From: Shigella phage KNP5
Sequence record: KX452698
Length of the DNA stretch: 64,000 bases
Reading direction: 5' to 3' (one strand)
The position numbers were made by a program, and so were the translations under genes. The notes beneath the pieces are model-generated. The model was not told the DNA's origin and did no database searches. It was given only the letters and a program-made list of their open reading frames with translations. Below are positions 5,355-39,550 of the stretch, piece by piece; the stretch's first letter is position 1, and every line of letters starts with the position of its first letter.

Positions 5355-5831
5355 GGTGTCTTTTCCATCCTAATTTAGCTGCTTTTGAAACCAGTTCTTT
5401 AATTTTTCCTTTTGTCCATTCAGGACCAGGAGGTTCATGACATAACATTTGCTTAACTCCGTTATTATACCATTTTTTACCTTTATTATGTGATGAAGCT
5501 TTAAATTTATTTGACCTTCCTTTTACATAACCTTTTGGAATATAAGGCAAAAAGGNNNNNNNNNNNNNNNNNNNNNNNNNNNNNNNNNNNNNNNNNNNNN
5601 NNNNNNNNNNNNNNNNNNNNNNNNNNNNNNNNNNNNNNNNNNNNNNNNNNNNNNTGAATCAAATAAGTGAGGATTATCTGAAAGCTCTTTATTATAAATT
5701 TTCTTATACTTTTTAGATAAAACTGAACCATGATATCCAGCTAAATGCCTATCTAAAGACGTAGATCCAATATAAAAAGGAGGAAGTTTATCTCCACTAT
5801 ATATTGTTAAATAAGTTATATATTTTTTCAT
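5332..5831 (-). CDS. GIY-YIG-like ORF (possible seg-type free-standing homing endonuclease) broken by a 99-N gap
   Basis: N-terminal fragment KKYITYLTIYSGDKLPPFYIGSTSLDRHLAGYHG resembles the GIY...YIG...R...H nuclease motif; basic C-terminal fragment on other side of gap in a different frame. Confidence 0.35.
5556..5654. other. Run of 99 N (assembly gap or masked sequence)
   Basis: Direct observation; ORF calls crossing it are unreliable. Confidence 0.99.
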
Positions 5832-6008: not shown

Positions 6009-7210
6009 TATTTTGTAATAATGTCAAACTGTTCTTTAAAGCAGAAGCTTGAATCTTGATGCTGATACAAAAATTCATAAGCTTTTTCGCGTTCACGGTC
6101 ATAAAGAGCTCGGTCAGATGACAGTTCTTTAATACGTTCAAATGTTGATTCCATGTCATTTTCATCAAACCAAACGATACCGCTATCATGTGAAATTAAC
6201 GGAGTATTATCAACACGGAATTTTAAATTTTCGCCAGTAGATTTCCAAAATACCGGAATTGTTCCGCACGCACCAAGCTCGAGATGAGTATATTCTAAAG
6301 AACGTTGTAGATATTTTTTGTCCAACTTACTCAACTGATAACCAAATCCGGATTTACTCATGCGTTCAAGCATTTCGCTATTTACATAACGGTCGAGAAT
6401 TTGCGTTGGCAAATTAGGAGCAATTTTAATTTGGTCTACTTGATGAAGACGATAATACTCGTATGGAATTCCTTTTTCTTTAATAGGAATGAACGCTGGA
6501 GAACGTTCCAGACCTTCCATAATAGTACTTAGTCCAGCAGGTTTAAGATGTTTTTCGTGAAAATCAAACATCTGATAAAAGCCTTTCCATGTAGTCGTAC
6601 GACCGATCCAACGGTTGACATTCATATTAATTTCAGAAACATCTTTCCAGTAGGTTGATCGAACCTTCGCAATATCCATAGGAGGCTGAAAGTTGTATAC
6701 GGTCGGTGCTTCTTCAATATCATCAAACAGAGAAACTATTTCTGGATACCATTCTTTCATCAAAACTTTATTAAAATCACCATTATCAGAATGGCTAAAA
6801 ATAACATCAGCACGACGAACAGTTTCTTCTAATCCCAAATTTCGACGTAAAGAAAGAGAAGAATGGTCATGTTGATAAACTACAACACGAACCGAAGGTT
6901 TAATGTTATCAATAATTTTTTTATAGTTATTAATAGTGTCTTCTTCTACTGAAGTAGCAGGAACTGAATTGATAATTAGAATATCACAATCATTTACCAG
7001 CTTAAGTGTTTTATCGTATTCTTTTGCCAATAAAACCGGAATTGAAAATGATTTATAATCATGCGCACAATTACGGGTAAATGATTTATCTTTAGCATAA
7101 ACCAAAGTTACTTCATGACCATTTTTAATAAACCAATCACGCTGCTCGAGAGAAAATTTAGTTACGCCGCAACCTTCAAGACCTCGAGCCATAAAAATAC
7201 ATACTTTCAT
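6008..7210 (-). CDS. a-gt: DNA alpha-glucosyltransferase (400 aa)
   Basis: ORF MKVCIFMARGLEGCGVTKFSLEQRDWFIKNGHEV...QFDIITK, same length and colinear with T4 a-gt as recalled. Confidence 0.95.
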   Translation of the reverse strand: MKVCIFMARGLEGCGVTKFSLEQRDWFIKNGHEVTLVYAKDKSFTRNCAHDYKSFSIPVLLAKEYDKTLKLVNDCDILIINSVPATSVEEDTINNYKKIIDNIKPSVRVVVYQHDHSSLSLRRNLGLEETVRRADVIFSHSDNGDFNKVLMKEWYPEIVSLFDDIEEAPTVYNFQPPMDIAKVRSTYWKDVSEINMNVNRWIGRTTTWKGFYQMFDFHEKHLKPAGLSTIMEGLERSPAFIPIKEKGIPYEYYRLHQVDQIKIAPNLPTQILDRYVNSEMLERMSKSGFGYQLSKLDKKYLQRSLEYTHLELGACGTIPVFWKSTGENLKFRVDNTPLISHDSGIVWFDENDMESTFERIKELSSDRALYDREREKAYEFLYQHQDSSFCFKEQFDIITK

Positions 7211-11221: not shown

Positions 11222-11437
11222 TTAAGCCTTTTTATCAAGAACAGCATTCAGTTTGTTAGTAATTTTATCCAGACGCTCATTGAACTCGCTAGAAGACAGT
11301 CCTTTTTCTGGAGAAATCAAACTAATCACGAAAAATATAGCAATAAAAGGAATAAGGAAAATAGCTCCAACTGCCATAAACAGAAAGAATGTTACGGTTG
11401 TAAGAAAATCAGCTAAACCTTTACGAAATTTATACAT
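11222..11437 (-). CDS. Small membrane protein (71 aa)
   Basis: Central hydrophobic helix FLTTVTFFLFMAVGAIFLIPFIAIFFVISLI. Confidence 0.5.
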   Translation of the reverse strand: MYKFRKGLADFLTTVTFFLFMAVGAIFLIPFIAIFFVISLISPEKGLSSSEFNERLDKITNKLNAVLDKKA

Positions 11438-11552
11438 ATTTTACCCTTAATTGATTAACCAAGCATTGATAAGCACTAAACTATATTGTGAATAAAATTC
11501 TGGACCAAAATGAAAAATCATATCATTTATAGTGTCCATGATATAATTCAAT

Positions 11553-12023
11553 TTAATCATGTTTCCACACCCCATCAGTATTTGACCAAAGTCGCTGATT
11601 ATCTGATCCTCGCCACAGCTTTTTGGTCGGAAGATTTTTCTCATACTTCCCATCAATAATAACATCAACATATTTAAGCATTTCTAGTTGTTTAATATCT
11701 TCAAACTTATATCCTGTCCACAACCAAATGCTTTTATTTGGATAAAGATTTTTTACTGTTTGAACAATGCAATGAACAGCATCTCGGTTATCAGGATAGA
11801 GAGGGTCTCCTCCAGTTATAGTTAATCCTTCTATATAATCATTATTCAAACATTCAATTAATTGTTCTAGTGTTTCACCAGTGAATGGAACGCCATTTCT
11901 AGCATTCCATGTTGATTTATTATAACACCCTTCGCATTTATGCAAACACCCCGTAACGAAAAGAACGACCCTGCATCCAGGGCCATTCACAAAATCGCAA
12001 GGATAAAATCTATCATAATTCAT
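11553..12023 (-). CDS. nrdG: Anaerobic ribonucleotide reductase activating protein NrdG (radical SAM, 156 aa)
   Basis: Radical-SAM cluster motif CLHKCEGCYN; immediately 3' of nrdD with ATGA overlap. Confidence 0.9.
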   Translation of the reverse strand: MNYDRFYPCDFVNGPGCRVVLFVTGCLHKCEGCYNKSTWNARNGVPFTGETLEQLIECLNNDYIEGLTITGGDPLYPDNRDAVHCIVQTVKNLYPNKSIWLWTGYKFEDIKQLEMLKYVDVIIDGKYEKNLPTKKLWRGSDNQRLWSNTDGVWKHD

Positions 12024-13837
12024 TGGTGTTTAACCCTATGCATGATTTCTTTATTTTTGCCGAGATTAAATCCGCGTTCATTCGGATTTCCCAAATAACC
12101 ACAAGTTCTTCTTATTGTGTTCATCTTTTTAGGATCAGTTTCTCCACAAATAGAACAAACAAATCCGTTTTCAGTAGGAGTCATTTCATGTGTACTTCCG
12201 CATGTAAAACACTTATCTACTGGCATATTAACGCCAAAATAATCTAAATGCTGTGCAGCATAATCCCATACAGCCTCAAGACCTTTTAGGTTATTTTTCA
12301 TATCAGGAAGTTCAACATAAGAAATGTGACCACCTGTCGCAATGAAATGATATGGTGCTTCACGAGAAATCTTTTCAAATGGAGTGATATTTTCTTCTAC
12401 TGAAACATGGAAACTATTAGTGTACCAGCCTTTATCAGTAACATCCTTTACACTTCCATATTTTTCAGTATCAAGTTTACAGAAGCGATAGCACAGGTTT
12501 TCAGCGGGAGTGGAATACAAGCTAAAAGCAAAACCAGTTCTTTCAGTCCACTGCTTAAGACGAGCATTCATTCTAGTTAAAATTTCCTGTCCAATATCAC
12601 GACCGATAAGAATATTCAATTCGTGAATACCAATGTATCCTAGGGACACTGAACTTCTACCGTTTTTAAATAACTCAATTATGTCGTCATCAGGTTTAAG
12701 ACGAACCCCGAATGCACCTTCTTGGTAAAGAATAGGAGCAACAGTCGCTTTAACTCCTTTTAAGGAACTAATTCTACACATCAAAGCTTCAAAACACAAA
12801 TCCATTCGTTCATTGAACAATTCGGCAAATTTCTGTTCATTGAATTGTGTTCCAATTTAAGAATCTAACGCAATGCGAGGAAGATTCAGTGTTACAACAC
12901 CAAGATTATTACGTCCATCAAGAATTTCATTACCAGTCGAATCTTTCCATACGCTTAAGAAACTGCGGCAACCCATTGGAGAAACAGGAATAGATGAACC
13001 GGTGATAGCTTTATTATTCTTAACTGAAATAATATCAGGATACATTCTTTTGCTTGCACACTCTAGAGCAAGCTGCTTAATATCATAGTTCGGATCGTCT
13101 TTATAAAGATTAACACCTTCTTCAACGAACATAACAAGCTTAGGGAAAATAGGAGTTATCCCATCGCGACCAAGGCCTTTAATACGATTTTTCAGAATTG
13201 CTTTCTGAATCATTCGTTCAGTCCAGTCAGTTCCCGTACCAAATGTAATTGTTACAAAAGGCGTTTGTCCGTTTGAACTAAAGAGAGTATTTACTTCATA
13301 TTCATAAGCTTGGAATGCATCGTATACGTCTTTTTCTGTTTTAGATTGGGCATAATTCAACGCATCAGCGATTTGCCATTTTTCTGCATCCTCAATATGT
13401 TTTGCATAGGTGCGTTTAACATAAGGAGAAAGTACTTTATCTACATTAGCAAAAGTCGTTCCGCCGTACTGATGTGAAGCAACCTGTGCGGTAATTTGTG
13501 CCATAATTGCAGTAGCAACACCGATTGATTTAGGAGTTTCAATCTGTGCATTACCGAGCTTAAATCCGTTCTCAAGCATTCCTTTTAAATCTACTAAACA
13601 GCAATTAGTAAATGGAAGAGCAGGGGAATAATCAATATCATGGAAATGAATAATTCCGCTTTCATGCGCTTTCATAATAAAAGACGGGACCATATTTTTG
13701 GCAATGTGTTTAGACACAATACCAGCCATAAGGTCCCGTTGAGTTGGAAAAACACGAGAATCTTTATTAGCATTCTCGTTCAAAAGGTCTTTATTAGTTT
13801 TATGAATCAATCCTTCAATTTCTTTTTCAATTGTCAT
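12020..13837 (-). CDS. nrdD: Anaerobic (class III) ribonucleotide reductase NrdD, 605 codons, intron-less, with an in-frame TAA at 12857-12859
   Basis: Two ORFs in one frame separated by one ochre codon; C-terminal glycyl-radical motif RRTCGYLG and Cys cluster; total length equals T4 NrdD. Confidence 0.85.
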
Positions 13838-14307
13838 TTTAAACTCTTTCTAAGCTGCTTCTTAAATGAAGCTATTAATTGTGTTTTAGTGTCAGATTCA
13901 TTATATTCAAATCCTCTTTGAAGCATCTCAGCCATCATTTCCTCTTTTCCTAAACGAGAAAATTCCTTTGATTTATCTCCAACGAAGTTAGGGTGAATAT
14001 TATTTTGGGTGTAATCGGATTTTAAATAAGTAAGTAAATTTTCCAACCATTCAAGATAATCAACACCTTGTCCCTTTAAGCCAGAACGATTAAATTTGTG
14101 CTTCATTTGACCTTCCGCAGCGTTGCAGAGATTACAGAGCAATCCACGCACCTTTCCTGCTTTTGGTCCATTTAATTCATGGTCATGGTCGAGGTGATTA
14201 GCTTGAACATCAGGATTTAGTTCTCGTTGGCAAATTAAGCATTTACCGTTTTGCGCATTATAAAATTTTTGTTTTTCTTCTTTGTATAATTTGCCAGTCA
14301 ATAACAT
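13834..14307 (-). CDS. 49: Endonuclease VII, Holliday junction resolvase gp49 (157 aa)
   Basis: MLLTGKLYKEEKQKF...CLICQRELNPD...HLDHDHELNG zinc/HNH-like motif; same length as T4 gp49. Confidence 0.95.
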   Translation of the reverse strand: MLLTGKLYKEEKQKFYNAQNGKCLICQRELNPDVQANHLDHDHELNGPKAGKVRGLLCNLCNAAEGQMKHKFNRSGLKGQGVDYLEWLENLLTYLKSDYTQNNIHPNFVGDKSKEFSRLGKEEMMAEMLQRGFEYNESDTKTQLIASFKKQLRKSLK

Positions 14308-14350
14308 AATAAAAACCCTTACCTTGAATAGATAAGGGTATTTATTATTT

Positions 14351-14527
14351 TCAAGTATTGTAAAACATTCGATGCAATCGCTTATATTGCCGAATCATCT
14401 TTTTAGTAGGTCGAACATAAGTTCCTACACAAGTGGTCATATTAGAGTCGGTAGGACTTCCTTTAATAAAAAGTTTCCAAACCTTACCACCATTTAACTT
14501 TTCAGTATAAATTAATTCGGTTTTCAT
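14351..14527 (-). CDS. Hypothetical small protein (58 aa; below ORF-track cutoff)
   Basis: ATG 14525-14527 overlaps upstream stop as TAATG; MKTELIYTEKLNGGKVWKLF... Confidence 0.35.
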   Translation of the reverse strand: MKTELIYTEKLNGGKVWKLFIKGSPTDSNMTTCVGTYVRPTKKMIRQYKRLHRMFYNT

Positions 14528-14991
14528 TAAAACGCTCGGTCAGAAAAAGAATTTTGAGTTTCAAGCCATTCAATATATTCTGCCGCAGCTTGCATTAAAT
14601 TTCCTTCATAACCATCGTTATTTTCTTGTGCAGCTAATTTAGCTAATGCGTATGAAATACGTTCACCTTGAAAAGCGGCTTCAGGCTTCCGAATAACTTG
14701 ACTAGTTCGTTCTACAACTTCTTCAATTTCGCCATTTTCTACTGATTCAGTATTCCACAAGCACCAATACGTAATTGGCTTATCGTAAATGTTAATAATC
14801 TTTCCATCAGAAAGTTCAATTTCAATAATTCCAGTATCAGGTTCTATATCATCTTCGCATTCTTTTGTAAGTTCACGAACTTTAAAGACAGTACCTGCAC
14901 TAAGTTCCGGCCAGTAATTACACAACCCTTTATCAGCACGATTAATTCTAAACCACTTATCTACTGTAATCATGTCCCATCTCCATATCAA
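14527..14991 (-). CDS. Hypothetical acidic protein (154 aa) at the position of T4 pin
   Basis: Minus-strand ORF; identity with pin not established. Confidence 0.5.
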   Translation of the reverse strand: MIWRWDMITVDKWFRINRADKGLCNYWPELSAGTVFKVRELTKECEDDIEPDTGIIEIELSDGKIINIYDKPITYWCLWNTESVENGEIEEVVERTSQVIRKPEAAFQGERISYALAKLAAQENNDGYEGNLMQAAAEYIEWLETQNSFSDRAF

Positions 14992-15096
14992 TTATGTCAT
15001 TTATCGTTAGTTCATTATATACTGTTTCTTCATCAGTGTAAACCGGTTCTTCCGGCTCTGGCTCTACAGTTTCCCATCTAGCCGCCCACCAAGGTT

Positions 15097-15417
15097 TTAT
15101 AGCGTAATCCATTCTCGTACTGTCTGAGTTACTACGCGTTCACGAGGCTCGACTAGTTCAACAGTCGGAACTGCATAATACCAGTCAGAATGGTAAGAAC
15201 CTGAGCGAGTTTCATTTACGGAAACATGTACATTGTGTTTTGGACTAAAATAAACACACTGACGATATTGGCATTTACCATCTTGCACCCAGTCTTCTAT
15301 TTCGATAGGTTTAAGATAATCTGAAAAATCGAAATCATAATTTTCTGAAAATGCATCATGGTCTTCGATGATTTCGCTCAGAACTGCATCAACATCTAAT
15401 TTATTTTCAATATTCAT
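15097..15417 (-). CDS. Hypothetical protein (106 aa)
   Basis: Minus-strand ORF. Confidence 0.5.
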   Translation of the reverse strand: MNIENKLDVDAVLSEIIEDHDAFSENYDFDFSDYLKPIEIEDWVQDGKCQYRQCVYFSPKHNVHVSVNETRSGSYHSDWYYAVPTVELVEPRERVVTQTVREWITL

Positions 15418-15427
15418 TTTTCACCAA

Positions 15428-15637
15428 TTAATTTCGCAATTTATTAAGTTCTTCATAATCAATCCAGGATTCTAATCCTGATGGCAAATCAGATTCAATT
15501 TCCCAAAGAAGCTCTTCAATTTTCTGAAGACGATCTAATTCTTCAGCTGGAATAGTAACCATCGACGGAGTTCTTGATACACTAATATCGTAAATCATAT
15601 TTACCCCAATTTGACCATACAATCGCCATATTTCCAT
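15428..15637 (-). CDS. Hypothetical protein (69 aa; start may be internal ATG at 15598)
   Basis: Minus-strand ORF overlapping neighbour. Confidence 0.4.
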   Translation of the reverse strand: MEIWRLYGQIGVNMIYDISVSRTPSMVTIPAEELDRLQKIEELLWEIESDLPSGLESWIDYEELNKLRN

Positions 15638-15816
15638 TTAGAAATAGACTTTTCACCATTAGAATAATAAACTTCGAGTTTAGCACGGTTATTTTTAATT
15701 TGAATAACCTTGGCTGTCATCAAAGTTCCATATCCATAATAAACTGCAACCTCATCACCTACATATACCGCGCTTCCGCGATAGTCATGGATATAATCAG
15801 TTCCTTCGAGCATCAT
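15601..15816 (-). CDS. Hypothetical protein (71 aa)
   Basis: Minus-strand ORF 3' of nrdC with ATGA overlap. Confidence 0.5.
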   Translation of the reverse strand: MMLEGTDYIHDYRGSAVYVGDEVAVYYGYGTLMTAKVIQIKNNRAKLEVYYSNGEKSISKWKYGDCMVKLG

Positions 15817-16076
15817 TTAAAGTATTCCCGCAATTGGTCAAATCCGCCAATATGACTTCCATCAGGAGCAAATACCTGAGGCATCGTCAAACCAATTTGA
15901 GTATCACGACCTAGTTTCGTCAGAAGCTCAGCGATTTTCTCATCATCAAAAACACCTTTTTCCGGCATAATATTGATAAATTCAAACGGCTGTTTCTTAA
16001 CAGTCAAAAGACGTTTTGCATTATCGCAATACACACATTTGTGGATGTTGCTATCATAACCATATACTTTAAACAT
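15813..16076 (-). CDS. nrdC: Phage thioredoxin/glutaredoxin NrdC (87 aa)
   Basis: MFKVYGYDSNIHKCVYCDNAKRLL... with CVYC active site; same length as T4 NrdC. Confidence 0.9.
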   Translation of the reverse strand: MFKVYGYDSNIHKCVYCDNAKRLLTVKKQPFEFINIMPEKGVFDDEKIAELLTKLGRDTQIGLTMPQVFAPDGSHIGGFDQLREYFK

Positions 16077-16077
16077 A

Positions 16078-16320
16078 TTATTCCTTAATTCCTAGTACTT
16101 GTTTAAAAGTCTCGTCGTAATCAAGACTTTGGCCCGTTTGTTCTTTATGTTTGTATATAATATCACTTACTTCTGATAGCATATTTTTATATGAACGAGT
16201 TAAAGCAGATTTAAGCACGCTGTATCTATCAGGAAATTTACCATGTTCATTATAATACGCTATTGCTAATTCACGGACTGCCTTTTCAGCAGTCTTCATA
16301 TATTCTTTACGCTTGGCCAT
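16078..16320 (-). CDS. Hypothetical protein (80 aa)
   Basis: Minus-strand ORF. Confidence 0.5.
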
Positions 16321-16624
16321 TTTCTTCTCGGTTAAATCGGTGTTTGCAATGACGGCATTTATAACGAAGAATACTAGTCTGCCAATGAATTAATTGAACC
16401 TGTTCAGTACCGCATTCAGGGCAATTAGGAACGTTTTTAGAAGCCCTTTCGCGACGTTCAACCATAGCCATAATAGCATCCCAGGCTGGAGGTTTAAAAT
16501 CTAAATCATCACAACCATGAATCTTTCCACGCATTTCCAGATCGTCTTCTTCACCAGCCATAATAATTTTAATTAGACTTGAATTACTTGAAGCTGCAAT
16601 GTCTTCTAATAGACGCTTTTTCAT
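16307..16624 (-). CDS. Zinc-ribbon protein (105 aa)
   Basis: CPECG...(x17)...CRHCKH four-Cys ribbon near C-terminus. Confidence 0.5.
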
Positions 16625-17550
16625 TTCAATACCTCAATGGCATTACGTAAACCATTTGCTTTTGCATTAAGAGCTTTTAACAATTTGGTGTGTTCGGCAA
16701 TCTGGGCTTCAACTTCAATCAAGCGAGCATTGAGATATTCACGTTCTTCGCTCAAGTTATCAGCCTTTTCTACTTTAGGTTCTTTTACGTTTGGCTTATA
16801 TGTATTAGGGTTCTTCAGTTTAATTAGAATACGTGAACTGTATAACATTGAACCATTATCTTCGGTTTCGTCATACATTTCTACTACGTCCATGATTTTT
16901 AACATCATGCGGAGTTTATAAGACAACGAACGAATAGTTTTGTTGTGCTTATTAATTTCTCTAGAGTTCATGGTGCCGAGATTACGTGAGTAATAATAAG
17001 GAACCTGGATATTAATTAACACTGATGAACCACCTGGCTTGTGTGTTACTTCATCAGCAATAACCCAATCCTTAACATGAACTGTATTTGTACGGTCATC
17101 GCCTGCGGTAAATAGTTTGCGAGCATGCTTAAAAAGCATATTCACTTGGGCATTGAATTGACAAGCAAATTTATCAGCAAATTTAGTTTCAGGAATGGTA
17201 GATAACCAATCAGCCAAATGGGTCTTTTTAACATCGTTAACAATAGTAAATTCAACCAAATCGGTTATAGATGTCGTAGATTTAATGAAGCTCGGCTTCA
17301 TAAAGTTTTTAATGTTATCGCGAGCTACAGTAGAAGATAACATACGAGAACGTTTAAACCATTCAAGCAAATTGCCTAACGAATGAGAATAAGCGTTTTG
17401 AGTATCTTTACAGATATGATTTTCCTGGCCAACATATTGAAGGAAATCACGAAGAATATTATTGATTACTGCTCTGTGTCCGATCTGATAATTACGGTGT
17501 TTAGTAATAAGACTGTCAAAATAATCAATATAATGTTTACGAGTTTTCAT
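16621..17550 (-). CDS. Hypothetical protein with C-terminal coiled coil (309 aa), family member 1
   Basis: Globular N-terminal region then about 50-aa heptad-rich tail starting PKVEKADNLSEE... Confidence 0.55.
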   Translation of the reverse strand: MKTRKHYIDYFDSLITKHRNYQIGHRAVINNILRDFLQYVGQENHICKDTQNAYSHSLGNLLEWFKRSRMLSSTVARDNIKNFMKPSFIKSTTSITDLVEFTIVNDVKKTHLADWLSTIPETKFADKFACQFNAQVNMLFKHARKLFTAGDDRTNTVHVKDWVIADEVTHKPGGSSVLINIQVPYYYSRNLGTMNSREINKHNKTIRSLSYKLRMMLKIMDVVEMYDETEDNGSMLYSSRILIKLKNPNTYKPNVKEPKVEKADNLSEEREYLNARLIEVEAQIAEHTKLLKALNAKANGLRNAIEVLK

Positions 17551-22045: not shown

Positions 22046-23026
22046 TTATTTCAGAAGAGTAACCTCAGCAATTTCTTCCCAACCGTTTTTGTCGGTCATA
22101 ATAAAGTCAGCAAGATAAAGAGCAGTACGCAGTGAAACATTGCGTAAACGATTAACATTAACTTTCATCCATGATAATGCTTTATAAGTTTCTTCATCAG
22201 AAAGACCGCGCTTTTGCATCATGTCAGTTGAAAGAATAACATCTTCAACCCTGACCATAATTTCTTCATTAGTGTGAACACCCAAATCCAAATAAACCGA
22301 GCGGGACACTAATGCTTGTAAATGTGGAGCAAGTTTAGTACCACGGTCTAATTCGCGGTCAATGTCAACGTTTGTGATAAAAACAATCGTTCCTTTAAAT
22401 TCAAACTCACGCTCAATGCCTTTTTCTTCTAAGTAAGAAGACGCAGTGCTCCAGCAGACTTTACGGGTCTCTCCAGTGTCCAGAGCGGCTTTTAGAAGAT
22501 TAAGAATGTCCATATCAGAGAAAACATCTACATCATCAATCAAAAGGACAGAATTCTCTTCACGATTATTCCAAAGCTGCTCATAAAGACCAATACCAGA
22601 GATTTTACCATTAATGCTTTTATATTCAATGTATCCAATATCATTTGCTTTATTTAAAGCTTTATCTAAAGAATACGTTTTACCAATACCTGCTGCGCCA
22701 GAGATAATCAATGAACGAATATTTCCATTAATAATACCATTCGTCATCATTCCCATAACATTAAATCTTTTATTAATGCGGGTTTTCATATCTTCATATG
22801 ATTCTTTAACTTCTTCAACTTTTACACCATCATATGAAATATCTGATTTGTAAACCCAAACACCGCGACGTTTACCGTCAATTTCAACAAAAACTTTACC
22901 ATCTCCTTGTGCATCTACCGGAGCATTATCTGGGAACCATTCGCCTAAGAGCTCAAAAGTTCCAGAGATTTCTTTACCGAAGTAGATACCCTTATTGATA
23001 GTTACAGTTTTCATTTTATTCTCCAA
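22046..23026 (-). CDS. AAA+/P-loop ATPase of unknown function (326 aa)
   Basis: Walker A SGAAGIGKTY, Walker B VLLIDDVD, sensor-like FITNVD; GGAG RBS; first gene after early promoter. Confidence 0.7.
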   Translation of the reverse strand: MENKMKTVTINKGIYFGKEISGTFELLGEWFPDNAPVDAQGDGKVFVEIDGKRRGVWVYKSDISYDGVKVEEVKESYEDMKTRINKRFNVMGMMTNGIINGNIRSLIISGAAGIGKTYSLDKALNKANDIGYIEYKSINGKISGIGLYEQLWNNREENSVLLIDDVDVFSDMDILNLLKAALDTGETRKVCWSTASSYLEEKGIEREFEFKGTIVFITNVDIDRELDRGTKLAPHLQALVSRSVYLDLGVHTNEEIMVRVEDVILSTDMMQKRGLSDEETYKALSWMKVNVNRLRNVSLRTALYLADFIMTDKNGWEEIAEVTLLK

Positions 23027-23039
23027 ATCCGTATCAGTT

Positions 23040-23082
23040 GATAGTTGTATAGTACCATAAAGCTTTATGCTTGTAAACCGTT
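23040..23082 (-). promoter_or_regulatory. T4-type early promoter
   Basis: Same repeat family (gttgatagttgtatagtacc ... cttgtaaacc). Confidence 0.5.
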
Positions 23083-23106
23083 TTGTGAAAAAATTTTGAA
23101 ATAAAA

Positions 23107-23128
23107 AAGGGAGCCCGAAGGCTCCCTA
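23107..23128 (-). terminator. Intrinsic terminator 3' of nucleotidyltransferase gene
   Basis: GGGAGCC-UUCG-GGCUCCC stem-loop followed by UUUUUU on minus strand. Confidence 0.6.
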
Positions 23129-24142
23129 TCATTTATAATAACTTCGGTGGTTTTCAAGATAAACCCTCTCAAGGAAGTCATCCCAGAAACCCATGTCTAC
23201 TTTTTGCTGCATACCGTTCTTAGAAGCTTCAATGGATGCTGCTTCTACTTGATCGACCACATCTTCCAAAAACTCTTGAACAGTTTTAAATGGATGTTTA
23301 CCCAACTTCACGTCGAGAATAAATGGAGCGTCTTGAAGTGGATAGACTAAGTCACCAGTTTTGTAAATTTCCAATAGTTGGAGTCCACCACGGCAAGCAT
23401 GACTCAGAGCTTTCCAGTCAATGCCCTCATTCGCTTCAGCCTTACGAGCACGTTCGCCGTATTCAGCATCAAGTTTATTCAAAGACTGCTTAAGCTCAAT
23501 AAGAGAAAGCGTTGTTTGATATTTACGACCCAACACAGTGTAGAACGTTTGTGGACCTGTTTTCTCATGATTATGGAATACCCATTCACAGAATTCGTTC
23601 TCTGGAAGACGATGCTTAATATCTTCAACTTTAGTTCGACGCTGCTTAATGGAACCGTCTTCTTGGTAATCAACCCATTGCTCAGGGATTTGATTAACTA
23701 CTTTCAACACATCACGTAATGCGGCCAAACGAGAACCCTTAACACCGTATTTAGAAGCTTGCTTGCGAACATATCCTAAGTAGGATTTCATGTTGGTCGT
23801 ATAAAAACGAGAACGGTTGTCTTGAATAAACTTCCATACATCAGGCAAATCAGATTTAACTACTAGTTCCGGTGGAGTGTGGAGCATATCCAATGCTACA
23901 GTTTCACCATCTGCTGCTAATTTAAAGAAATACTTAAGACTGTATAGTTCATGGTCAATATCATCTTTAGTGTTTTTAGATGATGTGTTGTTAGTGTTTT
24001 TACTCATATGCTCTTTAACATTTCCAATAAGAATATCGCGAGCAGGAGGAACAAAGATTTCTTTAAAATCTACATCAGATTCTGGAGTAGAAGTTCCATA
24101 AAGATGACTACCAAAATAGCTTTTCATTACTGTTTTCATCAT
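23129..24142 (-). CDS. Pol-beta-superfamily nucleotidyltransferase-fold protein (337 aa)
   Basis: N-terminal GSHLYGTSTPESDVDF matches the hG[GS]x(9-13)DxD NTase signature; ATGA coupling to upstream membrane-protein gene. Confidence 0.6.
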   Translation of the reverse strand: MMKTVMKSYFGSHLYGTSTPESDVDFKEIFVPPARDILIGNVKEHMSKNTNNTSSKNTKDDIDHELYSLKYFFKLAADGETVALDMLHTPPELVVKSDLPDVWKFIQDNRSRFYTTNMKSYLGYVRKQASKYGVKGSRLAALRDVLKVVNQIPEQWVDYQEDGSIKQRRTKVEDIKHRLPENEFCEWVFHNHEKTGPQTFYTVLGRKYQTTLSLIELKQSLNKLDAEYGERARKAEANEGIDWKALSHACRGGLQLLEIYKTGDLVYPLQDAPFILDVKLGKHPFKTVQEFLEDVVDQVEAASIEASKNGMQQKVDMGFWDDFLERVYLENHRSYYK

Positions 24143-24600
24143 TCAGCCTTATATTCAATAACAGGACATACTTTAGCTTTACGCGCTTTTAAAAATTCGA
24201 CGATAATAGATTTCTTGGGTTGAATAGGAGGTAAACCTTTATACGCCCTATCAATATTTTCTACATGTAAAGCATAATCCTTTTTCCATTTATAATCTTT
24301 ATATTTTTCATGCAGTTGTGCAGGAATAACAAATGAACCAATAATAAGTAAAACAAGCAAAATGGCAAGTATAAATGCTGATGGAATAAGAGTCCATAAA
24401 CTACCAAAAATAAGCCATTTCTGCATGATTTCTGCACAGATAATAGTTAGACCTGCGAGTATAGTACATCCGAAAAAAGAAACGAAAAATGTAGGGATAA
24501 CAATAGACCAAAAGTATGCACACAGTGTCTTAGGTCGTTTCCATTCATCATTAAACAGTTTGAATAATTTATAGTGCCAAGAGTTTTCATTAATAATCAT
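24139..24600 (-). CDS. Integral membrane protein (153 aa)
   Basis: Several hydrophobic helices (FWSIVIPTFFVSFFGCTILAGL..., ILAILLVLLIIGSFVI). Confidence 0.55.
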   Translation of the reverse strand: MIINENSWHYKLFKLFNDEWKRPKTLCAYFWSIVIPTFFVSFFGCTILAGLTIICAEIMQKWLIFGSLWTLIPSAFILAILLVLLIIGSFVIPAQLHEKYKDYKWKKDYALHVENIDRAYKGLPPIQPKKSIIVEFLKARKAKVCPVIEYKAE

Positions 24601-24602
24601 AA

Positions 24603-25124
24603 TTATCCTTTCATTGAAGGTGTAACAGTTGTTAAATACTTAATCATAGCTTCAGCTTCTGATTTTGATAATGAAATTTCTCCATTGTTTTGACGAATAG
24701 AAATAAAATCCGGATGACGGTCACCACCAGCTTTTAAAACACACATATAAGTATCAGTTTCATCTTCAATATCTGAAATAATTGAAGCAGTTCCGCATGA
24801 ATGTGGTTTTTGATAAATCAATGCAGCTTTTCTTCCACCGTTTGACTGTTCATAAACTTTTAACACATCAAACAAATCGCTTCTTTTATCAATAGCTAAG
24901 ATGTTGTTTTCATCTTCAATGTTAAATCCTTCGGATACTTCATAAAGTGTCACCCATAAATCACCTATATCGATAGTAGCATTTCCTTTTCCACGACTTT
25001 CAAGAATGTGACAAATTTTCTTAATTTCATCATAACTCATTTTAATAATATCATCTCCTTGACTAAGGAAGATGTCATTTTTAAATTCAACACGAATTAA
25101 ACCACTTTCACTTGAAATAAACAT
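24603..25124 (-). CDS. Hypothetical protein (173 aa), paralogue pair member
   Basis: GAGGAA RBS; C-terminus ...SEAEAMIKYLTTVTPSMKG resembles next ORF. Confidence 0.5.
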   Translation of the reverse strand: MFISSESGLIRVEFKNDIFLSQGDDIIKMSYDEIKKICHILESRGKGNATIDIGDLWVTLYEVSEGFNIEDENNILAIDKRSDLFDVLKVYEQSNGGRKAALIYQKPHSCGTASIISDIEDETDTYMCVLKAGGDRHPDFISIRQNNGEISLSKSEAEAMIKYLTTVTPSMKG

Positions 25125-25130
25125 ATTTCC

Positions 25131-25664
25131 TCACTTTGAAATCATAGTTGGAATGACAGAATCAAGATAAGTCTTTAGCGCAATAGCTTCGTCTTTGGTA
25201 AATGTGACAATATGCGATCGAAAATCGTCAATTTGACGAATAGTTAAGACATCTCCATCTTCATAGCATTTTGACACATTTAAAACAGTTTCATCATTCT
25301 GATTACAAGCGTTAGTAATAATAGCATTGCAATTTTTAAACCATTTTAAACTATGTTTTCTTTCATTAGAATAATAAAAATATTTAATCTTATCTATAAA
25401 ACTGTCCCAATAAATAACTGATAGGCATATTGACTCGCTTTCAATATTAAATCCTGGGCATGAAGAATAAAAATGAATTTTATGCTCATCATTAATGCTT
25501 ACTATTTTATCAGTATAAGGATATTCAATTTGGGTTAAATGAATGATTTCACTGGGCGTAAAATATAGCATATCGTCTTCTTGCGTCAAACGATACATAT
25601 TATTTACTTTTTCTATAGCCAATTCGCCAAAAAGTGGACTAACTTCTAATACTAATCGTTTCAT
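25131..25664 (-). CDS. Hypothetical protein (177 aa), paralogue pair member
   Basis: ATG 25662-25664 after AAAGGA RBS; C-terminus ...DEAIALKTYLDSVIPTMISK. Confidence 0.5.
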   Translation of the reverse strand: MKRLVLEVSPLFGELAIEKVNNMYRLTQEDDMLYFTPSEIIHLTQIEYPYTDKIVSINDEHKIHFYSSCPGFNIESESICLSVIYWDSFIDKIKYFYYSNERKHSLKWFKNCNAIITNACNQNDETVLNVSKCYEDGDVLTIRQIDDFRSHIVTFTKDEAIALKTYLDSVIPTMISK

Positions 25665-25665
25665 A

Positions 25666-25944
25666 TTAATCCTTTTTACTGACATAAATTTGTTCTAAAA
25701 TTTTAGAGTATTCCTTTGTATCAGATTTACGTACAATCGATACACTATAAGGCATACTATCAGTGTCTTTTATAAAGCGTTCCAAATGACACTCTAACAA
25801 AATTTCTGGATTATAAATCGTGTACATCAAATTACCTGTTGCTCCACGATATTGACAGATTTCTACTGATTGAGCGTCATTCCACAATTTTGTTAAGACT
25901 AAATCACCTACTTCTAATTTCGGAAAGCTCACATTATTCACCAA
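25666..25944 (-). CDS. Hypothetical protein (about 92 aa; non-ATG start)
   Basis: ORF begins TTG/GTG; no internal ATG until codon 40. Confidence 0.4.
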   Translation of the reverse strand: MVNNVSFPKLEVGDLVLTKLWNDAQSVEICQYRGATGNLMYTIYNPEILLECHLERFIKDTDSMPYSVSIVRKSDTKEYSKILEQIYVSKKD

Positions 25945-26117
25945 TTAAAGTTTCAATTAATTCTCTTAACTTAAAAGCTTGTTCACTTGTCATTACATAC
26001 TCCTTTGAATAATATCAATAATATTGTTCACCAGATTATAAGTAAACATTGGGTAATTATATTGAATCATCGCATACACAACAAACAAAACTTTCATTCT
26101 CTTCTCCTTGGCAGTTG

Positions 26118-26160
26118 ACAAGATTACTATATCATAACCTTGCCAACTTGTAAACCATTA
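26118..26160 (-). promoter_or_regulatory. Possible early promoter inside the 25945-26320 intergenic region
   Basis: Minus-strand GTTTAC, 17-nt spacer, TATAGT, then AAGGAG and short ORFs. Confidence 0.3.
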
Positions 26161-26320
26161 AATGACGTTTTCAATAAAATTCTGAAGCTTTGTGTGAGCA
26201 TCAACCATAATTTTCATTTCTTCCTTTGCGAAAGCTGTACCTCTTTCCCGAGAAGAATACTCATAGTCAGAAACTGCATTAGCGTATTCTTCAATTAGCT
26301 TCATTAAAAACATCTGCTTT

Positions 26321-26515
26321 TCAGTTTTCATTATTCCACCTAATCATTTCAAGATATTGAACTAACTTAGCTTTGGATTTATCCAAATCCTTTTTAGCTG
26401 CTTCTATACCATCGTATGAATATCCTTCACAATGCTCAACTGCCAATTGATATGAATCTATTTCAACATCACGTGCTAATTTAATGATTTTTTCAAACTG
26501 TTCACGTGTTAGCAT
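26321..26515 (-). CDS. Small acidic protein (64 aa)
   Basis: Minus-strand ORF MLTREQFEKIIKLARDVEID... Confidence 0.5.
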   Translation of the reverse strand: MLTREQFEKIIKLARDVEIDSYQLAVEHCEGYSYDGIEAAKKDLDKSKAKLVQYLEMIRWNNEN

Positions 26516-26517
26516 AC

Positions 26518-26721
26518 TTAAACTCTCGTATTGTGATCGATAATTTCATCAAGAAACATATCTAAAGCTTCTACAGCATTATCAACTTTAGCTTCAAATT
26601 TTTCAATACCTTTATTTGCAATGCCTGACGAAAACCAAGCAAAGTCACTAAGTTCCTCATCTGCTTTGCGAATTAAAGCTACCAATTCTTTAATTTTATC
26701 TGCTTGTTCAATGCTAATCAT
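26518..26721 (-). CDS. Small acidic protein (67 aa)
   Basis: ATG 26719-26721 overlapping upstream stop (TAATG); [23 protein letters not shown]... Confidence 0.5.
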   Translation of the reverse strand: MISIEQADKIKELVALIRKADEELSDFAWFSSGIANKGIEKFEAKVDNAVEALDMFLDEIIDHNTRV

Positions 26722-26909
26722 TATTCCACCACATATGAAAGAGAGAATATTGCACACGCCATGTGAGTTGCAGCTTCATCACACATATCATAACGTTTCT
26801 TAAGAAGTTCTACAAGTTCTTCACTAGTAACTTCATCCATGTCGACGAAAAAATCACCATTAATGATGACGTAGATATTTCCTTCTTGATTGAGTGCTTC
26901 AATTTTCAT
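26721..26909 (-). CDS. Small acidic protein (62 aa)
   Basis: ATG 26907-26909 after GAGGAG RBS; track start at 26954 would lie upstream of the promoter -10. Confidence 0.5.
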
Positions 26910-26927
26910 GATGTTCTCCTCTTTATC

Positions 26928-26970
26928 CGATAGTTGTATAGTATCACAGCTCAAATGGAAAGTAAACCGG
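26928..26970 (-). promoter_or_regulatory. T4-type early promoter
   Basis: Plus-strand gatagttgtatagtatcac ... agtaaaccgg repeat family. Confidence 0.5.
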
Positions 26971-26982
26971 TAAAATGAAAAA

Positions 26983-27002
26983 AGTCTCCCGAAGGAGACT
27001 AA
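26983..27002 (-). terminator. Intrinsic terminator
   Basis: GUCUCC-UUCG-GGAGAC stem-loop followed by UUUUUU on minus strand. Confidence 0.6.
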
Positions 27003-27004
27003 TG

Positions 27005-27391
27005 TTATTCGAGGGAAAGAAGATATTTACTCTGGTAAAACATCCCAGTAATATCATCTATCGTGCTTTGAATGGCTGGAGGCATTTCTTTATAAATGCT
27101 GTTAGATTGGTCTAGTATGCGATCAATCATTTTAATTGTGTCGGTAGGAAGTTTACTGGCATCTGGAATAGAAGGCGTGTATTTTCTACCAGAATACCCC
27201 AAATATTGCTCACCAAATTTATCAATCAAATCTGGCAACTCAGAGAAAATAAAATCGTATGCTTTGTGTCTAGCATAACTTTTAGTTTCAAAATGTGCAG
27301 AATGAAAATAAGCTTGTGCAGCCATTAATAAACCTAAGTATTCATCTGCCTTTGAAGGTTTTCCACTTTGTGAAAAGTCGCTGAATTTCAT
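27005..27391 (-). CDS. Hypothetical protein (128 aa) directly 3' of rI
   Basis: Minus-strand ORF, ATGA overlap with rI. Confidence 0.5.
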
Positions 27392-27681
27392 TCAGTCTCC
27401 AATTTAATGTTCATAATTCTAGCGTATGATTGTGCCATCTCCGCGCCTCGCTCTATACATTCAAAATCGGAAGAGCACGGGTCATTTTTATAAGTCGTTC
27501 GCATAAAACTATAGAACTGTTCAGATGATTCTACGCTTTTATTTTCAAAAAGCATATAAACATGTCTAATACCAGATTCCATAAATTTATCAAAATGAGG
27601 ATCGACATTCGCTTCAATCGGTGGAGATAAAGCAAACGCTAATCCTAGCATGGCAAATAGTGCCGTTGCTTTTAAGGCCAT
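27388..27681 (-). CDS. rI: Lysis-inhibition regulator RI (97 aa)
   Basis: MALKATALFAMLGLAFALSPPIEANVDPHFDKF... signal-anchor then periplasmic domain; same length as T4 RI. Confidence 0.9.
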   Translation of the reverse strand: MALKATALFAMLGLAFALSPPIEANVDPHFDKFMESGIRHVYMLFENKSVESSEQFYSFMRTTYKNDPCSSDFECIERGAEMAQSYARIMNIKLETE

Positions 27682-27693
27682 AAAGGCCTCCTA

Positions 27694-27906
27694 TCATTTT
27701 TGTCCTGTATTTACTTTATGCCGATGCACGGCCTTAACTTTATCAAGGTATTTTTCAAAATTTCGCAATCTAGTATAGTCTGCCGGAGATTGGTTGAGTG
27801 ATACTTCTCGACGCAAAGCTGAAATGATATTTCCAACTTCCCTACGAATTTCATCTAATTGAAGAACAGTAAGATTGCGAAGTTGCTTTTCAGTTAATTG
27901 TAGCAT
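27694..27906 (-). CDS. Hypothetical protein (70 aa)
   Basis: Minus-strand ORF between tk and rI. Confidence 0.5.
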
Positions 27907-27948
27907 ATATACCCCTTTAGTTAGATAAACCTATTTATAACTTTTGCA

Positions 27949-28530
27949 CTAACCGAGCTTTTTAGTTAATTCATTCCACTGTTTTCTACACAAAGAAACA
28001 TAAATTTCATCACCAATACAGATTTGATTACCTTCTTTAACTGGTGTTCCATCTTCCATTAATCGAGCTGTCATAATAGCTTTTTTACCACAATGACAAA
28101 CTGCTTTTAGTTCAATAAGTTTATCTGCAATCGCCAAAAGTTCTTTAGAACCTTCAAATAATTTTCCAGCGAAATCAGTCCTTAGACCATAAGCCATAAC
28201 AGGAACATTATATGTATCAACAATTCGGCTTAATTGATGCACCTGTTCAGTTTTTAAAAACTGGGCTTCATCTACAAATACACAATGAATATCTTTTTGT
28301 GCTTCTGCCCATTTATAGAACTCAAAAATATCCATATCATCCGTAATAATATTCGCTTCCTGTTTAATTCCAATGCGAGAAACGACTTCACAGACAGAAT
28401 CGCGAGTATCAATAGCAGGCTTAAGAACTAATACACCCATTCCGCGTTCTTTATAATTGTGTGCAGCAGTCAAAAGAGAAGCAGATTTTCCAGCATTCAT
28501 TGCTGCATAAGTAAAAATTAAACTCGCCAT
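27949..28530 (-). CDS. tk: Thymidine kinase (193 aa)
   Basis: P-loop AAMNAGKSASLL, VDEAQF Walker B, C-terminal Cys zinc-ribbon pairs. Confidence 0.9.
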   Translation of the reverse strand: MASLIFTYAAMNAGKSASLLTAAHNYKERGMGVLVLKPAIDTRDSVCEVVSRIGIKQEANIITDDMDIFEFYKWAEAQKDIHCVFVDEAQFLKTEQVHQLSRIVDTYNVPVMAYGLRTDFAGKLFEGSKELLAIADKLIELKAVCHCGKKAIMTARLMEDGTPVKEGNQICIGDEIYVSLCRKQWNELTKKLG

Positions 28531-28531
28531 C

Positions 28532-28720
28532 TTAGTCCTTAGTTAAATTTTCTAAATATGTTTCTAAATCATTTTCAGCTTTATCGATAGATTTTACTAA
28601 TTCGTAGTATGTTTCAGCATCTCCATAATCAGAAGATATTTCAAAAGACAAATCTTGTTCTAAACTAATAATTTCACCAACTAAAAATAATATTTCGTTC
28701 TTTTGTTCGCGAGTAATCAT
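28532..28720 (-). CDS. Small acidic protein (62 aa)
   Basis: MITREQKNEILFLVGEIISLEQD...; paralogous to next ORF. Confidence 0.5.
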   Translation of the reverse strand: MITREQKNEILFLVGEIISLEQDLSFEISSDYGDAETYYELVKSIDKAENDLETYLENLTKD

Positions 28721-28902
28721 AAGGAATTTATATAATTAATAAGTTCTTGTTCTTTATCGTCGAAATCTTTACACAGTTCTTCGTATTCATCGGTATTAAA
28801 AGGACCGCATTCATCACAAACTTTTTCCAATTCGCTATTTTTATCCATAACTTCGTGAATAAGAGAAAATAGTCTGTCTTTTTGTTCTTTGCTTAGGCTC
28901 AT
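28717..28902 (-). CDS. Small acidic protein (61 aa)
   Basis: MSLSKEQKDRLFSLIHEVMDK... Confidence 0.5.
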   Translation of the reverse strand: MSLSKEQKDRLFSLIHEVMDKNSELEKVCDECGPFNTDEYEELCKDFDDKEQELINYINSL

Positions 28903-29072
28903 ATATTAATTTCCAAAAGTTTTAAAATAATTCGCTTTTGCTTAAATATTTCCATAGTTAAATGATCAGTATCTTTTTGACCGATTCCAATGGCAAAACC
29001 TTTATTAACAGCGAGTTCAATTAAATTATCAAGTTCACGTAACACTTCATATTGTAGCTCAGAACTATTCAT
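28899..29072 (-). CDS. Hypothetical small protein (57 aa; below ORF-track cutoff)
   Basis: ATGA overlaps at both ends fill the gap between annotated ORFs. Confidence 0.35.
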   Translation of the reverse strand: MNSSELQYEVLRELDNLIELAVNKGFAIGIGQKDTDHLTMEIFKQKRIILKLLEINI

Positions 29073-29296
29073 TTCGGTTTACCTTCTTTAACGAAATCAG
29101 GATAAGGATAAAATCCCGAATAAAATCCTTCACCTTTATGATTGATGCATCCTTTATTAGAACAATAGCACCAATAATCGAAATCACAAGCCATTTCATC
29201 ATTACATAAAGCAAAAACAACTGGCCATTCACACTTTTCGCAGTGTGCATTTTTAAGAATACTAGTTTGGCTCATAACCATGTAACCTTTAAGCAA
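29069..29296 (-). CDS. Cys-rich small protein (75 aa), possible zinc-binding
   Basis: HCEKCEW...C...C...CYC...C spacing. Confidence 0.45.
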   Translation of the reverse strand: MLKGYMVMSQTSILKNAHCEKCEWPVVFALCNDEMACDFDYWCYCSNKGCINHKGEGFYSGFYPYPDFVKEGKPK

Positions 29297-29484
29297 TATT
29301 CTTCTACGTGCTGTTTACGACCTTTCTTATCAATAAAGGTATATTCAACGAATGTTCCAATATAGTCTTTATTTACATCATGTGGACTATTAATTGGGCA
29401 TTTAGTACGGCAAATGCGTTCCCATTGACGAATAATTTCCACTCTGTTTTTAGGATCAAACGGATGCGGGTAATGTACTTTCAT
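29272..29484 (-). CDS. Hypothetical protein (70 aa)
   Basis: Minus-strand ORF. Confidence 0.45.
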   Translation of the reverse strand: MKVHYPHPFDPKNRVEIIRQWERICRTKCPINSPHDVNKDYIGTFVEYTFIDKKGRKQHVEEYCLKVTWL

Positions 29485-38828: not shown

Positions 38829-38959
38829 TTTGTGAAAAAATTTTTAAAAATTTTTAGGGAATTCTAGGGCAGGGAGGGGCAATTAAAAGATAGGATAATA
38901 TATTATAAAGGGTAGAAACTAAATGATGTCTAGAGAGGTCCAGAAAGGCCTAGATACCA

Positions 38960-38990: not shown

Positions 38991-38993
38991 ATG

Positions 38994-39549: not shown

Positions 39550-39550
39550 C

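What the first reader, a model, noticed from the sequence alone, without database searches (positions are those of the whole stretch)
12020..13837. Intron-less nrdD interrupted by a single in-frame ochre codon
The minus-strand frame from 13837 to 12020 is 605 codons, equal to the spliced T4 NrdD length as recalled, and carries the C-terminal glycyl-radical motif RRTCGYLG. Codon 327 (12857-12859) is TAA. The 12 codons after it (IGTQFNEQKFAE) are open and in frame with the 266-codon downstream ORF, so the two ORFs are one gene split by one stop, not two exons. No roughly 1 kb group I intron or I-TevII ORF is present, unlike reference T4. This is either a real nonsense allele (NrdD is only needed anaerobically), a consensus error, or a readthrough site.
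Basis: partly seen in the sequence, partly recalled or inferred. Interest (0 to 1): 0.7.

Follow-up and report, generated by a model that had tools for sequence, protein, structure and literature searches.

The report
Nonsense mutation in phage nrdD gene
A T4-like phage carries an otherwise well-preserved anaerobic ribonucleotide reductase gene (nrdD) cut short by one T-to-A change that turns a tyrosine codon into a stop; this is most likely a recent knockout of a gene the phage needs only without oxygen, and is an ordinary finding.

Summary
On the minus strand, 13837..12020 is a 605-codon, intron-less nrdD that is colinear with T4 NrdD. Codon 327 (12857-12859) is TAA.

Five close relatives compared directly, and the T4 crystal-structure sequence, have TAT (Tyr) there. 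The lesion is therefore a single T>A transversion.

The stop is in the reads. An independent Logan assembly of run SRR3547481 matches the window 100% over 5.5 kb and has TAA. The sibling GenBank record KNP1 (KX452694.1) also has it, although that record differs from the window at 54 sites elsewhere. The 326-aa fragment is already in RefSeq as YP_010278203.1 of Shigella phage KNP5, which is probably the window's source.

None of the other 686 matching phage records contains the exact 61-mer with TAA. It is also absent from IMG/VR, JGI metagenome and GTDB genome contigs.

No other real gene in the 64 kb window is broken. I found no suppressor tRNA, no structure after the stop, and no ribosome-binding site for a restart. 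Lineage-specific changes in nrdD are 12 synonymous and 3 conservative missense, so the gene has not decayed.

Verdict: a recent, genuine ochre allele in a conditionally dispensable gene. It inactivates class III RNR, because Gly580 and the zinc site are lost. Low interest.

The parts
12020..13837 (-). Intron-less nrdD (class III anaerobic ribonucleotide reductase large subunit), 605 codons, interrupted at codon 327
   Evidence: aligns 1-605 without gaps to T4 NrdD (PDB 1H78). Pfam NRDD and Gly_radical match. Cys290, Cys543/546/561/564 and Gly580 are all encoded.
12857..12859 (-). Premature ochre codon TAA at codon 327. The ancestral codon is TAT (Tyr327), so the change is a single T>A at CDS nt 981 (window 12857).
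   Evidence: ECP2301, vB_SsoM_113, ime09, pSs-1 and T4 all have TAT; only 1 of 687 phage records holds the exact 61-mer with TAA; all 4 IMG/VR contigs matching with a wildcard at that base have TAT.
12860..13837 (-). The N-terminal 326-aa fragment, the product expected to be translated. It keeps Cys79/80 and Cys290 but lacks the C-terminal half.
   Evidence: It is an exact match to RefSeq YP_010278203.1 (Shigella phage KNP5) and to a gene called on Logan contig SRR3547481_2.
12020..12856 (-). The untranslated C-terminal 278 codons, which encode the zinc-ribbon cysteines and the glycyl-radical domain. They remain open and conserved. In-frame candidate starts are TTG340 (12820) and ATG345 (12805), with no Shine-Dalgarno motif upstream of either.
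   Evidence: Lineage-specific changes downstream of the stop are 5 synonymous and 2 conservative missense.
13299..13300 (-). The position that corresponds to the T4 nrdD group I intron / I-TevII insertion site. It is empty here.
   Evidence: T4 exon 1 ends at CDS nt 538 and the intron is 1033 nt; no Intron_gpI in the window, with a positive control in T4.
11553..12023 (-). nrdG (the radical-SAM activase). Its ATG overlaps the nrdD TGA (ATGA). No mobC homing-endonuclease gene lies between nrdD and nrdG, unlike T4.
   Evidence: T4 annotation.
13834..14307 (-). Gene 49 (endonuclease VII), immediately upstream and overlapping the nrdD start.

Best explanation
This is a genuine, recent ochre nonsense mutation (TAT to TAA, Tyr327 to stop) in the intron-less nrdD of the KNP1/KNP5 lineage of T4-like phages (Tequatrovirus). 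Translation stops after residue 326. The product keeps the N-terminal part of the barrel and Cys290. It lacks the zinc-binding cysteines (543, 546, 561, 564) and the glycyl-radical loop (Gly580). The phage's class III ribonucleotide reductase is therefore inactive. The phage remains viable because its aerobic NrdAB is intact and because nrdD matters only under anaerobiosis, when the host's own NrdDG can still supply dNTPs. Translation of nrdG, which is coupled to the nrdD stop by an ATGA overlap, is probably reduced as well. Shown here: the base change, its presence in the reads, its uniqueness to this lineage, and the absence of any rescue signal. Inferred: loss of enzyme activity, viability through NrdAB, and the polar effect on nrdG.
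For: (1) Every relative compared has TAT at codon 327, as does the T4 crystal-structure sequence. (2) Logan's independent assembly of SRA run SRR3547481 (contig 8623 bp) is 100% identical to the window over 5516 bp and has TAA. (3) GenBank KX452694.1 (KNP1) has an nrdD identical in all 1818 nt. Yet it differs from the window at 54 clustered substitutions and in its N gaps. At those sites ECP2301 shares the KNP1 base 23 times and the window base 26 times, so these look like real polymorphisms rather than noise. The stop is thus shared by two non-identical deposited genomes. (4) No reference genome has TAA, so reference-guided filling cannot have introduced it. (5) The assembly is otherwise clean in this window. 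Of about 112 ECP2301 ORFs of at least 70 aa with a match in the window, only nrdD is a real gene with an internal stop. The other flagged cases are antisense ORFs, or a frameshift upstream of an annotated start. (6) Lineage-specific changes in nrdD are 12 synonymous, 3 conservative missense and 1 nonsense, so the gene was under purifying selection until very recently. (7) nrdA and nrdB are intact in the KNP1 record. That T4 nrdD is dispensable aerobically, and that Gly580 and the C-terminal zinc site are required, is established knowledge (Young et al. 1994 and 1996 J Biol Chem; Logan et al. 1999 Science), cited from memory.
Against: I could not inspect a read pileup. Whether KNP1, the window and SRR3547481 come from independent sequencing runs is not documented. 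If all three derive from one read set, the agreement rules out assembler or editing errors but not a read-level artefact or a subpopulation variant. The KNP1 record is flagged UNVERIFIED and both assemblies contain N gaps, so these are draft-quality genomes. The complete lack of decay downstream of the stop fits a sequencing error as well as it fits a very young mutation.
Confidence: 0.82

Rival explanations
1. Sequencing or consensus error: the phage really has TAT (Tyr) and an intact nrdD.
For: The nearest GenBank record is tagged UNVERIFIED and unannotated. Both assemblies contain N gaps. The gene shows no decay downstream of the stop.
Against: TAA is reproduced by Logan's independent k-mer assembly of the raw reads and is present in two non-identical records. 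It is a substitution outside any long homopolymer, not an indel. No other real gene in the 64 kb is broken. No reference carries TAA, so it cannot have been copied in from one.
Confidence: 0.11
2. The stop is read through, by a host ochre suppressor or by near-cognate decoding with the phage's own tRNA-Tyr(GUA), so that some full-length active NrdD is still made.
For: The phage encodes a tRNA-Tyr with anticodon GTA, which is near-cognate to UAA. The downstream frame is perfectly preserved. The isolation host is recorded only as 'Escherichia sp.'.
Against: None of the 10 window tRNAs has a UUA anticodon, and the parts of the KNP1 record outside the window contain no tRNA genes at all. The stop is not shared by any relative, so no recoding signal can have evolved there. 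The 111 nt around and after the stop fold no better than shuffled sequence (z = 0.32). From general knowledge, UAA is the most efficiently terminated stop codon in E. coli.
Confidence: 0.04
3. A two-piece enzyme: the 326-aa fragment, together with a C-terminal fragment restarted at TTG340 or ATG345, reassembles into an active reductase, as in the split NrdA of Aeromonas phage Aeh1.
For: A gene caller does call a 261-aa ORF from Met345, with NRDD and Gly_radical Pfam hits, in the Logan contig. A split ribonucleotide reductase that keeps its function is a known precedent (Friedrich et al. 2007 PNAS, from memory).
Against: No Shine-Dalgarno-like motif precedes TTG340 or ATG345 (sequence). Residues 327-339 or 327-344 would be lost from the middle of the fold. 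No relative has this arrangement. Nothing is inserted between the pieces.
Confidence: 0.02

Closest known systems
Bacteriophage T4 NrdD (sunY), class III anaerobic ribonucleotide reductase; PDB 1H78/1H79/1H7A/1H7B/1HK8
   Same: Both are 605 codons long and align without gaps, with 9 amino-acid differences including the stop. Cys290, the four zinc-site cysteines and the RRTCGYLG glycyl-radical motif are all encoded. The neighbours are the same: gene 49 upstream and nrdG downstream.
   Different: T4 carries a 1033-nt group I intron with I-TevII after CDS nt 538, and a mobC gene between nrdD and nrdG. This window has neither. T4 has Tyr327 where this window has TAA.
Intron-less nrdD of close Tequatrovirus relatives (pSs-1 NC_025829, ECP2301 OR880646, ime09 NC_019503, vB_SsoM_113 LR746311)
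   Same: DNA identity is 97-98%. The length is the same at 1818 nt, there is no intron, and the overlaps with gene 49 and nrdG are the same.
   Different: Their nrdD genes are uninterrupted, with TAT at codon 327. The KNP lineage also has A272V, V411I and K422R.
Shigella phage KNP5 RefSeq protein YP_010278203.1 and Escherichia phage KNP1 KX452694.1
   Same: The 326-aa fragment is an exact match to YP_010278203.1. The KNP1 nrdD is identical in all 1818 nt, TAA included.
   Different: KNP1 differs from the window at 54 substitutions and in its N gaps elsewhere. The KNP5 record itself could not be fetched, so naming KNP5 as the window's source is an inference.
Genes-in-pieces NrdA of Aeromonas phage Aeh1 (split by the mobE homing endonuclease)
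   Same: A phage ribonucleotide reductase large subunit encoded as two consecutive ORFs.
   Different: In Aeh1 an endonuclease gene is inserted and both pieces have their own translation signals. Here there is only a point nonsense mutation, with nothing inserted and no start signal for the second piece.

Membership tests
Class III (anaerobic) ribonucleotide reductase NrdD | Sequence membership in Pfam NRDD (PF13597) plus the Gly_radical domain (PF01228) | tested here: met
   N-terminal half matches NRDD at 5.4e-88 (profile 1-292). C-terminal half matches NRDD at 1.3e-78 (profile 296-562) and Gly_radical at 4.4e-26.
Class III (anaerobic) ribonucleotide reductase NrdD | Catalytic Cys290, C-terminal four-cysteine zinc site, and the glycyl-radical motif RxxCGYxG with Gly580 | tested here: met
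   Cys290, Cys543/546/561/564 and RRTCGYLG at 576-583 are all encoded. All but Cys290 lie downstream of the stop.
Class III (anaerobic) ribonucleotide reductase NrdD | A single uninterrupted reading frame that gives a full-length catalytic subunit | tested here: not met
   TAA at codon 327. The locus is an nrdD gene carrying a nonsense allele. It is not expected to yield an active NrdD.
Class III (anaerobic) ribonucleotide reductase NrdD | An adjacent radical-SAM activase, NrdG | tested here: met
   the ORF at 11553..12023 matches Fer4_12 and Radical_SAM. ATGA overlap with the nrdD stop.
T4-type intron-containing nrdD (group I intron with I-TevII) | A group I intron within the coding sequence | tested here: not met
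   no Intron_gpI in the 64 kb window; positive control in T4 at 105 bits; colinear with spliced T4.
T4-type intron-containing nrdD (group I intron with I-TevII) | An I-TevII GIY-YIG endonuclease ORF | tested here: not met
   no extra about 1 kb of sequence and no additional ORF inside nrdD.
Programmed stop-codon readthrough / recoding site | The stop codon is conserved among relatives at the same position | tested here: not met
   every relative examined has TAT.
Programmed stop-codon readthrough / recoding site | A cognate suppressor tRNA or a stimulatory downstream RNA structure | tested here: not met
   no tRNA with a UUA anticodon; z-score 0.32 against shuffles.
Genes-in-pieces split ribonucleotide reductase (Aeh1 NrdA type) | Inserted DNA (a homing endonuclease gene) between the pieces, and an independent start with a ribosome-binding site for the downstream piece | tested here: not met
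   no insertion, and no Shine-Dalgarno-like motif before TTG340 or ATG345.
Genes-in-pieces split ribonucleotide reductase (Aeh1 NrdA type) | The two polypeptides reassemble into an active enzyme | not testable with these tools
   This needs co-expression and an anaerobic activity assay.

The most novel reading that the evidence does not exclude
The ochre codon is tolerated because the phage still makes functional NrdD. This could happen through low-level Tyr insertion at UAA by its own tRNA-Tyr(GUA), or through reassembly of the 326-aa fragment with a restarted C-terminal fragment. Either would make this a naturally occurring leaky or split class III ribonucleotide reductase.
Probability: 0.04. 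Interest if true: 0.5.

Novelty: already known. Interest (0 to 1): 0.1.

Why it matters
It matters little beyond annotation. It shows that the KNP1/KNP5 phage lineage carries a null allele of its anaerobic ribonucleotide reductase. That could lower its yield in oxygen-free settings such as the gut, which is worth knowing if these Shigella/E. coli phages are considered for therapy. For annotators, the two ORFs should be recorded as one nrdD pseudogene or nonsense allele, not as a 326-aa 'NrdD-like' protein plus an unnamed fragment. No new mechanism is involved.

Tried and rejected
(1) A link to the T4 intron or I-TevII homing site. Rejected: the insertion site is at CDS nt 538, 440 nt upstream of the stop.

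(2) A generally error-ridden assembly. Rejected for this window: no other real gene of at least 70 aa is broken relative to ECP2301. Genome-wide in KNP1, the few other anomalies sit next to N gaps.

(3) Suppressor tRNA. None is present in the window or in the rest of KNP1.

(4) A readthrough-promoting structure. None found.

(5) The same allele elsewhere. It is absent from the other 686 matching phage records and from IMG/VR, JGI metagenome and GTDB genome contigs. A wildcard control shows the search works.

(6) 'Phage Ec2-ASingh' as a close sister. Rejected: only 93% identical, with 16 gaps.

(7) Literature on KNP1, KNP5 or SRR3547481. No paper describes their sequencing. They appear only in BLAST tables and trees.

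(8) Fetching NC_055713.1 (KNP5). It is not in the collection.

(9) Confirming the window's source with a second exact-protein look-up. The protein I chose is too widely conserved to be informative.

(10) An exact-pattern control with the TAT allele.

Full report
**The observation**

Translating window 13837..12020 on the minus strand gives 605 codons and a terminal TGA, with one internal stop: TAA at codon 327 (12857-12859). The ORF list shows a 326-aa ATG ORF (12857..13837) and a 266-aa TTG ORF (12020..12820). Twelve open in-frame codons, IGTQFNEQKFAE, lie between them.

The N-terminal piece matches Pfam NRDD profile positions 1-292. The C-terminal piece matches positions 296-562 and also Gly_radical. 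With X at position 327, the protein aligns 1-605 to 1-605 without gaps to the T4 NrdD crystal-structure sequence (PDB 1H78 and others), which has Tyr327. Cys290, Cys543/546/561/564 and RRTCGYLG (Gly580) are all encoded.

**Source of the window**

The nearest phage record is 'UNVERIFIED: Escherichia phage KNP1' (KX452694.1; India; unannotated). It is 100% identical across nrdD. All other relatives are 98% identical or less.

The window is not that record, however. Over 48.5 kb the two differ at 54 clustered substitutions and in the number and placement of N gaps. At those sites the relative ECP2301 shares the KNP1 base 23 times and the window base 26 times, and never has a third base. The differences therefore look like real polymorphism, not noise.

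The 326-aa fragment is an exact match to RefSeq YP_010278203.1, 'NrdD-like anaerobic ribonucleotide reductase large subunit [Shigella phage KNP5]', on a 193,624-bp contig. That is the published length of NC_055713.1 (PMC10253784). I infer that the window comes from KNP5, a sibling of KNP1. I could not fetch that record to confirm it.

**The ancestral codon**

ECP2301, vB_SsoM_113, ime09, pSs-1 and T4 all have TAT at codon 327. The lesion is a single T>A transversion at CDS nt 981.

Among 687 phage records that match a 61-mer centred on the site, only KNP1 holds the exact sequence with TAA. A 23-mer with TAA is absent from IMG/VR, JGI metagenome contigs and GTDB genomes. With a wildcard at the variable base, four IMG/VR contigs match and all have TAT.

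**Is the stop real or an error?**

Its 8623-bp contig is 100% identical to the window over 5516 bp (window 16837..11322) and carries TAA. It also agrees with the window at the five positions in that stretch where KNP1 differs.

The stop is therefore present in raw-read k-mers and in two non-identical deposited genomes. It cannot have come from a reference genome, because none has it.

The assembly is otherwise sound here. Of about 112 ECP2301 ORFs of at least 70 aa that find a match in the window, nrdD is the only real gene with an internal stop. The other flagged cases are antisense ORFs, plus one frameshift upstream of an annotated start. Genome-wide in KNP1, the few other anomalies sit beside N gaps.

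I put the probability of a genuine allele in the sequenced DNA at about 0.8. The main caveat is that the independence of the read sets is undocumented.

**Age and selection**

Against the five-genome panel, the KNP lineage has 16 private changes in nrdD. Twelve are synonymous, three are conservative missense (A272V, V411I, K422R), and one is the nonsense change. Downstream of the stop there are five synonymous and two missense changes. The gene was under strong purifying selection until very recently and has not begun to decay. The mutation is young. It may have arisen during aerobic laboratory propagation, but that is inference.

**Alternatives**

- *Intron relationship.* T4's 1033-nt intron follows CDS nt 538 (window 13300|13299), 440 nt upstream of the stop. 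Rfam finds no group I intron in the window but finds one in the T4 control. Intron-less nrdD is the norm: 747 of 1020 matching records are colinear over at least 80% of the query. This fits the known variable occurrence of T4 introns (PMC2988022). The mobC gene that T4 carries between nrdD and nrdG is also absent.
- *Readthrough.* The ten tRNAs in the window (Arg, Asn, Tyr, Met, Thr, Ser, Pro, Gly, Leu, Gln) include no UUA anticodon, and the rest of KNP1 has no tRNAs. The stop is not conserved in any relative. The RNA after it folds no better than shuffles (z = 0.32).
- *Two-piece enzyme.* No Shine-Dalgarno-like motif precedes TTG340 or ATG345. Residues 327-339 or 327-344 would be missing, and nothing is inserted between the pieces.

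**Mechanism and consequence**

Translation ends after residue 326. The product lacks the zinc site and Gly580, which are required for class III activity (established knowledge: Young et al. 1996 JBC; Logan et al. 1999 Science; cited from memory). The phage's anaerobic reductase is therefore null. Translation of nrdG, which is coupled through an ATGA overlap, is probably reduced.

nrdA and nrdB are intact in KNP1. Growth in air should be unaffected, and under anaerobiosis the host's NrdDG can partly compensate. These consequences are inferred, not shown.

**Novelty**

This is a point nonsense allele of a well-characterised, conditionally dispensable T4 gene, and RefSeq already holds the truncated product. 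It is ordinary. Its only practical use is to correct the annotation (one nrdD pseudogene, not two ORFs) and to flag a possible anaerobic fitness defect in a candidate therapeutic phage. Interest is about 0.1.

Noticed in passing
window 5556-5654 and 41416-41514: There are two runs of exactly 99 N, so the window comes from a scaffolded draft assembly. The second run lies about 370 nt beyond the end of the tRNA cluster.
   Followed up: partly
window 16789-17291, 22709-29783, 38915-40865, 42515-62376 versus KX452694.1 (L017): The window is not identical to its best GenBank match, KNP1. There are 54 substitutions in tight clusters, several next to KNP1's N gaps, and the gap placement differs. Both alleles occur in relatives (23 versus 26 in ECP2301). 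This suggests two sibling genotypes or a mixed stock, not random error. The window is probably Shigella phage KNP5 (NC_055713.1, 193,624 bp), which is oddly long for a Tequatrovirus of about 166 kb.
   Followed up: partly
L017 (KX452694.1) around record 50244-50435: In the KNP1 record, the 72 nt on either side of the 49-N gap both align to the same window stretch (29720-29791). The gap therefore appears to separate two overlapping contig ends that were never merged.
   Followed up: no
window 40219-41049 (minus strand): The cluster holds 10 tRNAs: Arg-TCT, Asn-GTT, Tyr-GTA, Met-CAT, Thr-TGT, Ser-TGA, Pro-TGG, Gly-TCC, Leu-TAA and Gln-TTG. The relative ECP2301 has an eleventh, His-GTG, between Arg and Asn that is missing here.
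   Followed up: no
window 23089-23181 (minus strand): There is a frameshift relative to ECP2301 in the upstream extension of a 378-aa ORF. It lies before the annotated 322-aa CDS start in ECP2301, so it probably falls outside the real gene.
   Followed up: partly
KX452694.1 record 6551-7040 (L010), outside the window: An mrh-like gene (161 aa in ECP2301 and pSs-1) is split across two frames exactly at a 10-N gap (6659-6668). This is an assembly artefact in the sibling record. Similar breaks sit at the N gaps near 113-114 kb and 123 kb.
   Followed up: partly
window 12020-12023: nrdD and nrdG overlap directly (ATGA). The mobC HNH homing-endonuclease gene that T4 carries between them is absent. 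The DUF7279 58-aa ORF between gene 49 and pin is present here and in vB_SsoM_113 and pSs-1, but not in ECP2301 or ime09.
   Followed up: no
protein cluster of the N-terminal fragment: Most members of the 90% cluster are 181-aa products. That is the length expected if gene callers stop just inside the intron of T4-type nrdD, since exon 1 ends at codon 179-180. A 442-aa NrdD is annotated in Salmonella phage Lv5cm, so truncated nrdD annotations occur in other deposited T4-like genomes too.
   Followed up: no
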